Shown: in pieces, positions 17,017 to 21,177 of the stretch
Numbering within the stretch: the first letter of the stretch is position 1
Layout of the letters: each line of letters opens with the position of its first letter
UHGV virus genome: UHGV-1407433
Reading direction: 5' to 3' (one strand)
DNA length: 25,186 bases
From: a virus
Notes under the pieces: model-generated
Seen by the model: only the letters and a program-made list of their open reading frames with translations
Told to the model about the DNA's origin: nothing
The model's database searches: none
Translations under genes and position numbers: made by a program

Positions 17017-17219
17017 ACGTAAAACCCTGCTGGCCCCCGGCGTCGTGATGTGGTGCCAACCTGAGATTCAAGGTCAGCAATATATTTTTTGAGATCGCTG
17101 ACTGAAGTGGCTGTAAATTCCACTCTTCGACCGTCTTTCTGTACCGTCGCCACGCGCTTTCCCATCATCAGGTCATGTAACGCAGCGCGCGCGGCATCCA
17201 GTTCAGTCTGTGTTGCCAT
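17013..17219 (-). CDS. W: Head completion protein W
   Basis: ATG at 17219..17217, overlapping the A stop (TAATG). 68 aa, ...[43 protein letters not shown]...[10 protein letters not shown], near-identical to lambda gpW. Confidence 0.97.
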
Positions 17220-19141
17220 TATTCATCTCCAGATAATGCCCGCGCGTAATCCGCCAGGGTCTTGTTATTGTTACGGCTGCCTTCTTCCTCCAGCAGGCTG
17301 GCCAGAAGTGAATCAAGATTTAGCTGCCAGCGGGATATGCTTATACGCAGCGCCGCCAGTGCATAAACAAAGCAATCGAGCGCCTCATTTCGTCGTTTTT
17401 TGCTGTCCCAGACGATCTTTTTCTTTCCGTCTACCCATTTTTCCACCTGCTCTTCAGCTGTTAGTTGTTGGGCCTCTGTTAGATCGTAGATTTCTGGGTT
17501 ATTCGGGAAATGAACCGCTCCCGCCAGCGGCTCGTCTCTTTGCGCCACCAGCGTGAAACGGTTATAAATCTGCTCTTTTGCGGTGTCTGTTCCTACCTCT
17601 GTGAGGTAAACACCATTCTTGTTACGCTTGCGTGGCATGTTCGCCACTGGCTTTCCATAAACCGACGCCCCCTTTATAGGGATCACACGAAACAGACCGT
17701 GTTTTTTTGAGCGGTTGTAGACGATGGTGGGATCAATGCCGCCAATATCCCAGCAAGTGCGGGATATAACCATTTCGAGACCGTTCTGGCGCTTATACGT
17801 CCTGTTGATCGCTTCATCAACTCGAGCGAGAGTCGACTCATCATCATGACGACCCATAATGATAATTTTGTCGATAAGCCAGCTTTCCTCTCCCGGCCCC
17901 CATCCCCAAACACGCATTTCGTAACGGTCAAGCTGGGAGTCAATACCCGCTGTCAGATATGCCACTCGCTCCGGCACAGACGCTTCAAAGTGCTCTTTTC
18001 GTTCCGCTAAAACTTCAGCATCGGGTCGTTCACCTATTTTCGGTTCCCACGTTTCGCCCAGGGTCGTGTTAACGAAAGTTTTTCGCTTACCCGTATCACC
18101 TTTTGTTTTTATCCAGTCCTTGACGATCTGCACCCAGGTTGTGAACGGGCTATATGCGGTCCAGATGTGGAATGTAACGCTGTCAGGAGGTTCAATTTCG
18201 GTACCGGATGAAGAAAACCAGTTAAGGCCGTCTCGTGTCCAGATACCTGTTTCATCACAAATATACCTGGCCTCCAGAAATTCCAGCTCCTGTTGTTTAA
18301 TCACACAGGCATTGTGTTCACAGAGGTAGTAAACGCTGGCAGGTTCTCCCGGAGACCATTTGAAGCCAAATGGTGTCTCTTTATCACCGAATTTCAGATA
18401 CTGCTCTTCCCCACAGTGTGGGCATGGAACATGGAACCGAAGAAAATGTTCAGACTCCTTAGCAGCTCTTTCTATCTGGCACGTACCTTTGACTTTCGGT
18501 GTAGATCCGCGAATGGATTTCGGCCATACAGAACCCTCAATACGCTTATCACCCAGAAAGGTGGGAGAACCTTCTTTCTCGATGTCATCATCGAAAGCGG
18601 CGAGCTCGTCGTAGCCAGCCACATCAACTGATTTTTCACGGTAGTTTTTTGCAGCCTTACCGCCCAGGCACCAGAAACCACGACCATTCGAGAAACGCTT
18701 CATGCTCAGCGTATTGTCCCGGTGTTTTTTACCGTACCAGGGAGCAAGCGCCAGCAACGTCGGAATATCACGAATGGTCGGTTCTACATGAGACTTCATG
18801 AAGTTTTCAGCATCACCGTCGGTTGGTAACCATATTAGGGAGTTACGCTGTTTATGTTGGATGAAATATGCGTAAACGCCGAGCAACATTTTTGAGTAGC
18901 CGACACGAGCCGATTTAACGACATTCACCTCGCGAATATAGTCATTACCCATCGCATTCATAATTGCACGCTGAAATGGCAGTGTTTCCCAGCGCCCTTC
19001 CTGGTAGGCAGACTCTTTCGGGAGATAATAATTCTCATCTGCCCATTCAACTGCTGTTTGCGGTTGCGGCCGGTACAGCGAACGTAACCCCGCCCGCGCA
19101 GAGTGCTGCAGCCCCTTAACCTGACTGTTCGATATATTCAC
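17219..19141 (-). CDS. A: Terminase large subunit A
   Basis: ATG at 19141..19139. 640 aa, [65 protein letters not shown]... closely resembles lambda gpA. Overlaps the 3' end of Nu1. Confidence 0.97.
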
Positions 19142-19661
19142 TCAGCAACCCCGGTATCATTTCATCCAGCGCAGCTGCCTTGTTCATGGCCTTAATGATG
19201 TCCTTCTTGAGGAAATCAATATGTCGGTTCTCCAGCTCCGGGAAGCGCCGCTGAACCGACAGAGGTATTCCATCGAGAATGCTGGCGATTTCTCCGGCTA
19301 CCCGCGACAGCACGAACGTGCAGAATGCGGTCTCCACCACTTCAGCGGACTCTTTTGCATTTTTTAATTCCTGAGCGTCAGCCTGAGCTCGCGTAAGTCG
19401 GTGTCGCTCATATTCAATCGTGCCAGGTTGAAGATCGGACTCAGAAGCGATACGGAGATCTTCAACTTCCTTCCGCAACTTTTCATTTTCTATAGCTGCA
19501 TCGCGCGCACTGTACCATTCGATTGCAGCAGCAGATTCAAAGAGAACCTCATTACCTTTGCCACCACCGCGGACAACCGGCATACCTTGCTCCTGCCAGT
19601 TCTGAATCGTTCGGACGCTTACCCCGAAAATTTCGGATAAGCGTTTTTTGTTAACCTCCAT
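19116..19661 (-). CDS. Nu1: Terminase small subunit Nu1
   Basis: ATG at 19661..19659. 181 aa, MEVNKKRLSEIFGVSVRTIQNWQEQGMPVVRGGGKGNEV... near-identical to lambda Nu1. Immediately downstream of cos. Confidence 0.97.
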   Translation of the reverse strand: MEVNKKRLSEIFGVSVRTIQNWQEQGMPVVRGGGKGNEVLFESAAAIEWYSARDAAIENEKLRKEVEDLRIASESDLQPGTIEYERHRLTRAQADAQELKNAKESAEVVETAFCTFVLSRVAGEIASILDGIPLSVQRRFPELENRHIDFLKKDIIKAMNKAAALDEMIPGLLSEYIEQSG

Positions 19662-19836
19662 GGCTTACTCCTGGCAAAAAACAGAGAAAGGAAACAATCA
19701 ACGGTAAACTTCCGTTTTCCTTGCTCAGCATTTCCTTTCTGGAGAGAGGACGTTTTTAACAAAAACAATGAGTAAACAAGAAGAAGAACGGAAATGGCAT
19801 AAACCAGAAAATTTTCATAAATAGCGAGAATCTGCG

Positions 19837-19848
19837 CGGACGCCGCCC
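19837..19848 (-). other. cos: cosN (cohesive-end site) within a lambda-like cosQ-cosN-cosB region (about 19662-19878)
   Basis: Minus strand reads ...GGGTCCTTTCCGGCGATCCGCCTTGTTACG | GGGCGGCGTCCG | CGCAGATTCTCGCTATTTATGAAAATTTTC..., closely matching the lambda right-end/left-end junction as I recall it (lambda cohesive end GGGCGGCGACCT). Confidence 0.8.
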
Positions 19849-19878
19849 CGTAACAAGGCGGATCGCCGGAAAGGACCC

Positions 19879-19903
19879 GCAAATGATAATGATTATCATT
19901 TGC
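19879..19903. promoter_or_regulatory. Perfect 12+1+12 palindrome with a 17/19 match to the Fur-box consensus
   Basis: GCAAATGATAAT-G-ATTATCATTTGC. The minus-strand reading GCAAATGATAATCATTATC matches GATAATGATAATCATTATC at 17 of 19 positions. Lies about 30 bp from cosN and about 50 bp downstream of the 155-aa gene. Confidence 0.4.
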
Positions 19904-19949
19904 TGGAATGCGACTTGATTCGCACCCATTTGGACGTCTAAACGTCCAT

Positions 19950-20417
19950 TCATCGCAACAGCGCTGACCATATCGTGCCACCTGGCCGAAGACTCTTCTT
20001 CAGTTCCTCGGACACAACATCTGAGATCGCTTTTACCATTTCAGGGGATAGCTTCACGCCGGTCTTAATTTCGGGACAGATGCCAACATTGATGGCATAG
20101 CCTTTTCGTGGGTCGTTCTCTATCCGGCCAAACTGAATATTTACAGAGCCACCAATATAACCACCAGCAGGAACACCAAAGCGCGTATTCACCAGGTGCT
20201 TAATGGCGAACTCCTGCCCTTCAGCGGTCAGGAAGGTGTAATAATTTTCCTTTTGATACTCCGTCGCGGTATGGCGTGTTTCAGCGAATCCCAGCTCTAG
20301 AAGCTCAGCAGCACCAGATTTGGCTGGCAGATCACCAGACTGAAGCGCGCCACGGAAAAACAGCGCATACAGAACATCCGTCGCCGCGCCGGACAACGTG
20401 ATAATTTTATGACCCAT
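19950..20417 (-). CDS. Hypothetical protein (155 aa), last gene before cos
   Basis: ATG at 20417..20415 with AAGGA SD at about 8 nt. No family recognised from sequence alone. Confidence 0.6.
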   Translation of the reverse strand: MGHKIITLSGAATDVLYALFFRGALQSGDLPAKSGAAELLELGFAETRHTATEYQKENYYTFLTAEGQEFAIKHLVNTRFGVPAGGYIGGSVNIQFGRIENDPRKGYAINVGICPEIKTGVKLSPEMVKAISDVVSEELKKSLRPGGTIWSALLR

Positions 20418-20527
20418 GATTTATTTCCTTTTAGGCGTGAGCCTGTCGCACGGCAAAGCCGCCGAAAGTTAACGGTTTGCCCAGGCTCACAGCTGAAAGA
20501 CTTTCTACGATGTGCGCGTGCGATGCG

Positions 20528-21090: not shown

Positions 21091-21147
21091 TTTATACCCC
21101 GCAGGGGATAAAAACCATATTATCCGCTTGCGGGGATAACCATTATC
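21091..21147. repeat. Composite element of two GATAA-armed palindromes (TTTATACCCC-GCA-GGGGATAAAA and TTATCC-GCTTGC-GGGGATAA) joined by an AACCAT linker
   Basis: Seen directly. Related in sequence and arrangement to the reverse complement of the element at 22947-22997. Confidence 0.7.
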
Positions 21148-21177
21148 AAGCCCACCAGTAGATGGGCTTTGTAATGG

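What the first reader, a model, noticed from the sequence alone, without database searches (positions are those of the whole stretch)
19879..19903. Near-consensus Fur box (perfect 25-bp palindrome) adjacent to cos
GCAAATGATAAT-G-ATTATCATTTGC is a perfect 12+1+12 palindrome. One strand matches the 19-bp Fur-box consensus GATAATGATAATCATTATC at 17 of 19 positions. It sits between the 155-aa gene and cosQ/cosN, where I do not recall lambda having such a site. It could make a neighbouring promoter iron-responsive, or be an unrelated structural palindrome involved in cos recognition or DNA bending.
Basis: partly seen in the sequence, partly recalled or inferred. Interest (0 to 1): 0.5.

Follow-up and report, generated by a model that had tools for sequence, protein, structure and literature searches.

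The report
Fur-binding palindrome beside phage cosQ
The palindrome is a real, near-perfect binding site for the host iron regulator Fur, but it is the same site already shown to bind Fur upstream of nohA in E. coli K-12; lambda and most lambda-like phages carry it next to the DNA-packaging signal cosQ, and its purpose there is unknown.

Summary
Window 19879-19903 is a perfect 12+1+12 palindrome with a perfect TGATAAT-N-ATTATCA core, and it matches the 19-bp Fur consensus at 17 of 19 positions. None of 100 shuffles gave a match. It directly abuts cosQ (19872-19878), about 30 bp from the cohesive-end site cosN (19837-19848).

Lambda has the same 16-bp core at 48451-48466, six bases before cosQ. 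So do 434, phi80, N15, 21, HK225, mEp213, Stx1 phages, and the K-12 cryptic prophages DLP12 and Qin.

The Qin copy is identical to lambda's. It is the published nohA "-233" Fur site, which was selected in vivo and gel-shifted with Fur. A Fur ChIP-exo peak in CFT073 also lies exactly on this box in a 21-like prophage.

I collected 104 distinct cos sites from viral contigs using cosQ and cosN alone. Of these, 54 carry the box 11-16 bp upstream of cosQ, against 4 of 416 control windows. The DNA further upstream is unrelated between sites.

Satellite-type cos sites and some close relatives lack the box, so packaging does not need it. Its function is unproven. A transcriptional operator or insulator in front of the terminase operon is my leading guess. 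This is a new member of a known kind, of modest interest.

The parts
19879..19903 (.). Fur box: a perfect 12+1+12 palindrome, GCAAATGATAAT-G/C-ATTATCATTTGC
   Evidence: It matches the 19-bp Fur consensus at 17 of 19 positions on the minus strand. It is homologous to the EMSA-verified nohA Fur site.
19884..19898 (.). 7-1-7 Fur core TGATAAT-N-ATTATCA, centre at 19891. It lies within the 16-bp ATGATAATCATTATCA (19884-19899) that is identical to lambda 48451-48466.
   Evidence: The most conserved columns across 31 sites with unrelated flanks fall here.
19872..19878 (-). cosQ (GGGTCCT), the packaging-termination subsite. It directly abuts the palindrome.
   Evidence: The same 7 bp is annotated as cosQ in the phage 21 and 434 records.
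19837..19848 (-). cosN cohesive-end sequence GGGCGGCGTCCG. This is the N15 type, differing from lambda at positions 9 and 12.
   Evidence: plus PMC4669245 for the N15 differences.
19662..19836 (-). Interval between cosN and the Nu1 start codon, in the position of cosB. It was not dissected here.
   Evidence: Assigned by position only. It is 100% identical to phage Phi06_2987 and 99.7% identical to mEp237.
19116..19661 (-). Terminase small subunit Nu1
   Evidence: Pfam Phage_Nu1, E = 1.6e-95.
17219..19141 (-). Terminase large subunit (gpA-like)
   Evidence: 640-aa ORF overlapping the end of Nu1. It was used as the tblastn probe that recovered TerL downstream of other cos sites.
19950..20417 (-). 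155-aa gene upstream of the box, on the same strand as Nu1, with no Pfam family. It belongs to the variable DNA, not to the conserved module.
   Evidence: Conservation across E. coli genomes begins only at the palindrome.

Best explanation
This is a genuine high-affinity operator for the host ferric uptake regulator Fur. It is a conserved but dispensable accessory element of lambda-type cos modules. It sits where variable accessory DNA ends and the conserved block cosQ-cosN-cosB-Nu1-A begins.

Shown, partly by homology: Fe2+-Fur binds this sequence class in vitro and in vivo, and the box is held 11-16 bp upstream of cosQ in phages whose flanks and terminases are otherwise very different.

Inferred: in a lysogen under iron-replete conditions, Fur occupies the box. 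There it acts on transcription at the entrance to the terminase and head operon, either as a repressor of weak local initiation or as a roadblock or insulator against non-antiterminated read-through from upstream accessory genes. Occupancy would be lost under iron starvation. Late transcription and the translocating terminase during lytic growth would simply displace Fur. Packaging itself does not need the box.
For: Sequence:
- The 7-1-7 core is perfect and the 19-mer matches at 17 of 19, with none in shuffles.

Homology to tested sites:
- The Qin DNA upstream of nohA is identical to lambda 48440-48502, and its palindrome centre lies exactly 233 bp before the nohA ATG.
- That is the nohA site at -233 of Chen et al. 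2007: 22.3 bits, shifted by 150 nM Fur, and earlier isolated by in vivo selection by Vassinova and Kozyrev (PMC2189734).
- The DLP12 copy is their 25.3-bit nohB site.
- CFT073 Fur ChIP-exo peak P53 (1424699-1424711, iron-replete) overlaps the 15-bp box, which I place at about 1424694-1424708, six bases before cosQ of a 21-like prophage.
- Genes on both sides of that peak are listed as Fur-regulon members, up 1.3 to 2.9 log2 in delta-fur.

Conservation:
- Of 104 distinct cos sites chosen only by cosQ plus cosN, 54 have the box with at most 3 mismatches, centred 11-16 bp upstream of cosQ. Control windows gave 4 of 416. The mismatch distribution is bimodal.
- 31 of these have mutually unrelated upstream flanks, and information content rises abruptly at position -13.
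- The box occurs alongside TerL proteins that range from over 80% down to about 25% identity.
- Variants change one arm only: 111 one-sided against 4 compensatory changes. This is the pattern of a protein site.

Association with the operon rather than with packaging:
- 42 of 44 box-bearing sites have TerL within 3 kb downstream, against 21 of 39 sites without the box.
- Satellite-type cos sites carry an intrinsic-terminator-like hairpin in the same position instead.
Against: No sigma-70-like promoter overlaps the box in this window, so repression of local initiation has no visible target here.

Published delta-fur effects are inconsistent. The flanking genes go up in CFT073, are unchanged in MG1655 (nohD, nohQ, ydfO), and go down in W3110 (ynfO, ydfO, ylcI).

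Delta-fur strains also show SOS or prophage induction (recN up; Yersinia ruckeri). The CFT073 rise could therefore be indirect.

A purely transcriptional role does not obviously explain why the box stays within 16 bp of cosQ.

The contrast between satellites and phages rests on a few related satellite families, so it is not statistically independent.

Fur binding to this exact 25-mer has not been measured.
Confidence: 0.5

Rival explanations
1. Fur is an accessory host factor for DNA packaging, as IHF is at cosB. Bound 13 bp before cosQ, it would bend the DNA or act as a speed bump that slows the incoming terminase motor just before cosQ. This would improve recognition of the termination site and tie packaging efficiency to iron status.
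For: The box keeps a near-fixed distance to cosQ (11-16 bp, mostly 13-15) across terminase lineages with only about 25% identity. The conserved block in E. coli genomes begins exactly at the box. From my own knowledge, not checked here: Fur footprints span about 30 bp and so would reach cosQ, and cosQ mutations are suppressed by changes thought to slow packaging.
Against: Cos sites of satellite-like elements, which depend on helper terminase, lack the box. A third of the phage-type sites also lack it, including L108, whose Nu1 is 94% identical to this window's. The spacing varies by up to 5 bp, half a helical turn. The word fur does not occur in the main text of the genome-wide lambda host-dependency screen, which reports 57 host genes (PMC2900299). 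Records from the packaging field annotate cosQ as 7 bp only.
Confidence: 0.15
2. The box is a Fur decoy. As phage DNA replicates to hundreds of copies, the strong Fur sites would titrate Fur and derepress the host iron-uptake and iron-sparing regulon. That would supply iron-dependent enzymes such as ribonucleotide reductase during phage DNA synthesis.
For: The homologous nohA fragment was originally recovered by an in vivo selection for cloned Fur sites (PMC2189734). These are among the strongest predicted Fur clusters in K-12, at 25.3 and 22.3 bits. E. coli genomes carry a median of 2 and up to 9 copies of the block.
Against: A decoy could sit anywhere in the genome, so this idea does not explain the fixed position next to cosQ. 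From my own knowledge, Fur is abundant at thousands of molecules per cell, so a few hundred sites would titrate only a fraction. There are no data on Fur-regulon expression during lambdoid lytic growth.
Confidence: 0.12
3. The palindrome is not a Fur site in function. It could be a structural element (a DNA cruciform, or an RNA hairpin or weak terminator at the end of the upstream gene cluster). Or it could be the target of another protein, for example an extended cosQ read by the large terminase subunit, whose sequence merely resembles a Fur box.
For: As RNA, the late-strand sequence folds into an 11-bp hairpin (z = -3.7 for the 66-nt stretch). A T-rich run follows the palindrome. Satellite cos sites have a genuine terminator-like hairpin at the same spot.
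Against: Variants break the symmetry far more often than they keep it: 111 one-sided against 4 compensatory changes. The stem is all A-T except its ends, and the terminator scan did not call it. The conserved bases are exactly the Fur 7-1-7 positions. Fur binding to the lambda-identical copy is experimentally shown. Close TerL relatives work without the box.
Confidence: 0.05

Closest known systems
The nohA (Qin) and nohB/nohD (DLP12) Fur-binding sites of E. coli K-12 (Vassinova and Kozyrev 2000; Chen et al. 2007, PMC2189734)
   Same: It is the same element at the same place: a TGATAAT-N-ATTATCA palindrome 233 bp upstream of the Nu1-homologue start codon and 5-6 bp before cosQ. The 16-bp core of the window is identical to the Qin and lambda copy.
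   Different: In the window both flanks complete a perfect 25-bp palindrome, whereas lambda and Qin have AGA...CTT flanks. The upstream neighbour is a co-directional 155-aa gene rather than the divergent ynfO/ylcI (DUF3950) gene. The window element belongs to an apparently intact mEp237-like phage rather than a cryptic prophage. The K-12 papers I could read and search describe the site as a promoter-region site of noh genes and do not mention cos (one search found no occurrence of 'phage' or 'cos' in the Chen et al. text; literature searches).
Classical Fur boxes of iron-uptake promoters (19-bp GATAATGATAATCATTATC, or two overlapping 7-1-7 sites)
   Same: It matches 17 of 19 positions with a perfect 7-1-7 core. 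For the homologous nohA site, two overlapping predicted sites 6 bp apart are reported.
   Different: There is no recognisable promoter for it to overlap and no iron-related gene next to it in this window. The delta-fur response of the flanking genes is weak and varies between strains.
IHF site I1 in lambda cosB (a host DNA-binding protein site built into cos)
   Same: It is a binding site for an abundant host protein, embedded at a fixed position in the cos region and conserved among lambda-like phages.
   Different: From my own knowledge, I1 lies within cosB on the other side of cosN and has a demonstrated role in terminase assembly. No packaging role is known for the Fur box, and natural cos sites without it exist.
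Intrinsic terminators abutting cosQ in cos-bearing satellites (PICI-like and helper-embedded satellites, PMC10111431)
   Same: They occupy the same position, immediately 5' of a T-run and [G/A]C before GGGTCCT.
   Different: Those are G+C-rich hairpins with long T-runs and no Fur motif, found in elements with an integrase, an AAA_25 protein and SSB.

Membership tests
Fur box (Fe2+-Fur operator of Enterobacteriaceae) | Sequence match to the 19-bp consensus or the 7-1-7 motif, well above chance | tested here: met
   17 of 19 and 15 of 15 positions, with 0 matches in shuffles. The lambda-identical and DLP12 copies score 22.3 and 25.3 bits in the published model.
Fur box (Fe2+-Fur operator of Enterobacteriaceae) | Direct binding by Fur protein in vitro | not testable with these tools
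   Not measured for this 25-mer. The Qin nohA copy has an identical 16-bp core and shifted with 150 nM Fur (PMC2189734; positional identity verified).
Fur box (Fe2+-Fur operator of Enterobacteriaceae) | Occupancy by Fur in vivo under iron-replete conditions | not testable with these tools
   There are no data for this phage. The equivalent box in a CFT073 prophage lies under ChIP-exo peak P53, condition R (PMC10164565).
Fur box (Fe2+-Fur operator of Enterobacteriaceae) | Overlap with a promoter, and Fur- or iron-dependent transcription of an adjacent gene | tested here: inconclusive
   No sigma-70-like promoter was found in 19600-20500. Published delta-fur data go up in CFT073, are unchanged in MG1655 and go down in W3110.
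cos subsite of lambda-like phages (cosQ, cosN, cosB) | Fixed position relative to the nicking site, conserved among lambda-like phages | tested here: met
   The box is centred 11-16 bp upstream of cosQ in 54 of 104 independently selected cos sites. It is present in lambda, 434, 21, phi80, N15, HK225, mEp213 and Stx1 phages.
cos subsite of lambda-like phages (cosQ, cosN, cosB) | Required for cos cleavage or packaging | tested here: not met
   This rests on natural variation only. Half of the cos sites lack the box, including satellites packaged by helper terminase and phages with Nu1 87-94% identical to the window's.
Rho-independent terminator | G+C-rich hairpin followed by a U-run, with pairing maintained by compensatory change | tested here: not met
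   It was not called by the terminator scan. The stem is A-T rich, and variants show 111 one-sided against 4 compensatory changes.

The most novel reading that the evidence does not exclude
Fur, and through it the cell's iron status, takes a direct part in lambda-type DNA packaging or DNA-end biology. A Fur dimer pair bound 13 bp before cosQ, 25-50 bp from the last-packaged and first-injected DNA end, could help the terminase motor recognise the termination site, or could act on the entering DNA end. That would make Fur a second host factor of cos alongside IHF.
Probability: 0.12. Interest if true: 0.7.

Novelty: new member of a known kind. Interest (0 to 1): 0.35.

Why it matters
Two literatures describe the same 60 bp without referring to each other, as far as my searches could show. 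Fur-regulon studies list a strong Fur site "upstream of nohA/nohB". Packaging studies define cosQ as 7 bp.

Putting them together gives three points:
- Phage lambda itself carries an experimentally validated Fur site six bases from cosQ.
- Selection keeps that site in about two thirds of lambda-type phages, across very different terminases.
- An average E. coli genome therefore holds about two, and up to nine, strong prophage-borne Fur sites.

The function is unknown, but it can now be tested simply with box-scrambled lambda in fur+ and delta-fur hosts. If the role is only transcriptional insulation, this is a small addition to prophage biology. If it touches packaging or Fur titration, it links iron status to phage production.

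Tried and rejected
- Genome scan. A scan of genome contigs with the cosQ...cosN pattern returned only chance matches in G+C-rich genomes such as Streptomyces and various MAGs.
- Papers not held. The primary cosQ papers (PMC1461673, PMC47553), Vassinova and Kozyrev 2000, and a PMC id that I recalled for a lambda review are not in the library. The statement that mutagenesis limits cosQ to 7 bp therefore rests on record annotations and on my memory.
- Supplements not held. The supplements of Chen et al. 2007 and Beauchene et al. 2015 are not held. I could not read the exact nohA oligonucleotide, so I verified identity by coordinates instead.
- Promoter search. The tool found none. By eye, TATCAT in the right arm is a possible -10 but has no conserved -35. 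The strong conservation of the T at +8 to +10 is better explained by the T-run that precedes cosQ in all classes of site.
- No independent Fur weight matrix. I could not retrieve a clean set of footprinted sites, so I relied on consensus matches and the published bit scores for the homologous copies.
- Iron-related neighbours. The 155-aa neighbour has no Pfam family and gave no lead.
- Earlier link in the literature. Searches for a paper linking Fur with cosQ or lambda cos found nothing.

Full report
**1. What is in the sequence**

The window is a lambda-like phage read in reverse orientation.
- The large terminase subunit is at 17219-19141 (minus strand).
- Nu1 is at 19116-19661 (minus strand; Pfam Phage_Nu1, E = 1.6e-95).
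- A 288-bp non-coding interval follows, then a 155-aa gene at 19950-20417 (minus strand).
- The interval is 99.7% identical to phage mEp237 and 100% identical to a prophage of E. coli O68:H12 strain 97.3.

Read in lambda orientation, the interval is:
...CATTCCA GCAAATGATAATCATTATCATTTGC GGGTCCT TTCCGGCGATCCGCCTTGTTACG GGGCGGCGTCCG CGC...
- The 25-bp palindrome occupies 19903-19879.
- cosQ (GGGTCCT) occupies 19878-19872 and touches the palindrome.
- The 12-nt cohesive end occupies 19848-19837. I placed it against the ends of the phi80 and lambda records. It is the N15 type, which differs from lambda at positions 9 and 12.

The palindrome is perfect (12+1+12). Its 7-1-7 core TGATAATNATTATCA is perfect. 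One strand matches the 19-bp Fur consensus at 17 of 19 positions. No shuffle of the window produced any of these matches.

**2. Lambda has it too**

The right end of lambda reads ...TGTAGATGATAATCATTATCACTTTAC GGGTCCT TTCCGGTGATCCGACAGGTTACG.

The 16-bp ATGATAATCATTATCA at lambda 48451-48466 is identical to window 19899-19884. It sits six bases before cosQ (48473-48479).

Anchoring a set of phages on GGGTCCT shows the same element 5-8 bp upstream of cosQ in 434, DLP12, Qin, phi80, N15, 21, HK225, mEp213, mEp237, Stx1-converting phages, VT1-Sakai, PhiR12_1 and phiSTEC1575. The DNA further upstream falls into unrelated groups.

A blastn search of the region against 5,426 complete E. coli genomes found matches in 4,704 (median 2 places per genome, up to 9). 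In the listed matches to other prophages the alignment starts within the first five bases of the palindrome (query positions 58-62). The box is therefore the left edge of the conserved cos module.

**3. It is a known Fur-binding site**

Chen et al. 2007 (PMC2189734) list strong Fur clusters upstream of nohB (25.3 bits, the third highest in their K-12 table) and nohA (22.3 bits, position -233).
- The nohA site had been isolated by Vassinova and Kozyrev's in vivo selection.
- An oligonucleotide containing it shifted with 150 nM Fur.

I checked that these are the cos-adjacent palindromes.
- In MG1655 the DNA upstream of nohA is identical to lambda 48440-48502. The palindrome centre lies exactly 233 bp before the nohA ATG.
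- In DLP12 the centre is at NC_000913.3 position 580601, also 233 bp before nohD. This equals the published coordinate 579824 plus the 777-bp offset between genome versions. The offset is from my own knowledge.

Independent in vivo evidence comes from the Fur pan-regulon study (PMC10164565). In CFT073, ChIP-exo peak P53 (1424699-1424711, iron-replete) is assigned to the intergenic region next to a nohD-led transcription unit. Reading that region shows GTGATAATTATTCTCG six bases before the cosQ of a 21-like prophage. I place the 15-bp box at about 1424694-1424708, directly under the peak.

Fur binding to this class of site is therefore established. For the window's own copy it is inferred from the identical core.

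I found no paper that connects this Fur site with cosQ or lambda cos. The packaging paper I could read does not mention it.

**4. Is the box under selection, and tied to what?**

[quoted passage not shown] This gave 104 distinct sites.
- In the 40 bp before cosQ, the best match to the 7-1-7 motif is bimodal. 54 sites have 0-3 mismatches and 46 have 6-9.
- Only 4 of 416 control windows further upstream reach 3 mismatches or fewer.
- The centre of the box lies 11-16 bp (mostly 13-15) before cosQ. The variation comes mainly from the length of a T-run.
- 31 box-bearing sites have mutually unrelated upstream flanks. Their information profile is flat until position -13 and then rises sharply. The consensus is TGcAAaTGATAATcATTATCATTT.
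- Among 49 distinct boxes, changes in the arms are almost always one-sided: 111 one-sided, 4 compensatory and 5 two-sided non-compensatory. The sequence is conserved, not the pairing. That is the signature of a protein-binding site, not of a hairpin.
- The box accompanies large terminase subunits ranging from over 80% to about 25% identity with the window's.

A binding partner shared by all these phages is more likely a host protein than a phage-specific one.

**5. Packaging does not require it**

Half of the cos sites lack the box.

Many of those have a G+C-rich hairpin plus T-run (an intrinsic-terminator form) in the same position, and no terminase gene within 3 kb. One such contig (L042) carries three cos sites. 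Around them lie an integrase, an AAA_25 protein, SSB, a protease-capsid fusion and an interrupted large-terminase gene. That is the layout of a satellite embedded in a helper prophage.

Other box-less sites belong to ordinary phages, including some whose Nu1 is 87-94% identical to the window's (L036, L070-L072, L085, L108).

Where 1.5 kb or more of downstream DNA was available, 42 of 44 box-bearing sites have TerL downstream, against 21 of 39 box-less sites. The box therefore goes with the presence of the terminase and head operon rather than with cos as such. This contrast rests on a few related satellite families and is only suggestive.

The word fur does not appear in the main text of the genome-wide lambda host-dependency screen, which reports 57 host genes.

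**6. What it does**

This part is inference. The best-supported reading is a Fur operator acting on transcription at the entrance of the terminase and head operon in the prophage state. It would be either a repressor of weak local initiation or a roadblock against read-through from the variable accessory genes upstream. Satellites place a terminator at the same spot.

In CFT073 the genes on both sides of the peak rise in delta-fur: C_RS26755 +2.9, C_RS07340 +2.3, terL +1.3, portal +1.6 and head protease +2.1 log2.

Against this reading:
- The simple scan finds no sigma-70-like promoter around the box in this window.
- In MG1655 nohD, nohQ and ydfO do not change. In W3110 ynfO, ydfO and ylcI fall rather than rise.
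- Delta-fur strains show SOS and prophage induction (recN; Yersinia ruckeri), which could explain the CFT073 numbers indirectly.

Two rivals remain open.
- A packaging accessory role would explain the tight linkage to cosQ, but it fits poorly with the box-less cos sites.
- A Fur-decoy role during lytic replication fits the way the nohA fragment was first isolated, but it does not explain the fixed position.

I put about 0.9 on "binds Fur" and about 0.4 on the transcriptional role.

**7. Verdict**

The finding is real and the Fur-box reading is right. However, it rediscovers a documented Fur site, and the claim that lambda lacks it is wrong.

What my analysis adds is that this site is a conserved, dispensable companion of cosQ across lambda-type phages. 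That is worth a simple experiment. It is a new member of a known kind and of modest interest.

Noticed in passing
L042 67-101, 8202-8236 and 10738-10772; also L017, L030, L035, L058, L068, L086, L096, L099, L103, L121, L122: Many cos sites without the Fur box have a G+C-rich hairpin plus T-run directly before cosQ. L042 has three cos sites in 12 kb, lying around an integrase, an AAA_25 protein, SSB, a Clp-protease/capsid fusion and an interrupted GpA_ATPase gene. It looks like a satellite embedded in a helper prophage's terminase gene.
   Followed up: partly
5-10 bases 5' of GGGTCCT in the sites listed (window 19879-19886): A T-rich run followed by [G/A][C/T] precedes cosQ in Fur-box sites, terminator-type sites and many others. 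The functional context of cosQ may therefore extend a few bases beyond the 7 bp usually annotated.
   Followed up: no
window 21100-21175: A weaker Fur-like core, GGATAACCATTATCA (21134-21148, 2 mismatches), lies in an intergenic stretch. The same stretch has a repeated GCGGGGATAA motif and a hairpin, AGCCCACCAGTAGATGGGCTTT. Together with 19023-19037, the window has 5 matches at 3 mismatches or fewer, against 0.76 expected.
   Followed up: no
window 19837-19848: The cohesive end is GGGCGGCGTCCG. This is the N15/HK225 type (lambda positions 9 and 12 changed), although cosQ and the cosQ-cosN spacer resemble phi80.
   Followed up: partly
L001 1110-1304 (lambda 48109-48303, minus strand): Lambda encodes a 64-aa homologue of YnfO/YlcI (DUF3950) that is not annotated in NC_001416. 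It is transcribed away from cos, with the Fur box 156 bp upstream of its start. In lambda-type phages the box therefore lies in a divergent intergenic region.
   Followed up: partly
L136 355-681 (CFT073 NC_004431 1423654-1423980): The CFT073 21-like prophage whose cos-adjacent box is bound by Fur carries a small gene annotated as 'TonB family protein' about 700 bp upstream of the box.
   Followed up: no
window 19925-19950: A short inverted repeat, GGACGT-TTAG-ACGTCC, sits immediately after the stop codon of the 155-aa gene. Related copies occur in mEp213 and HK225 upstream of their boxes. It has no T-run.
   Followed up: no
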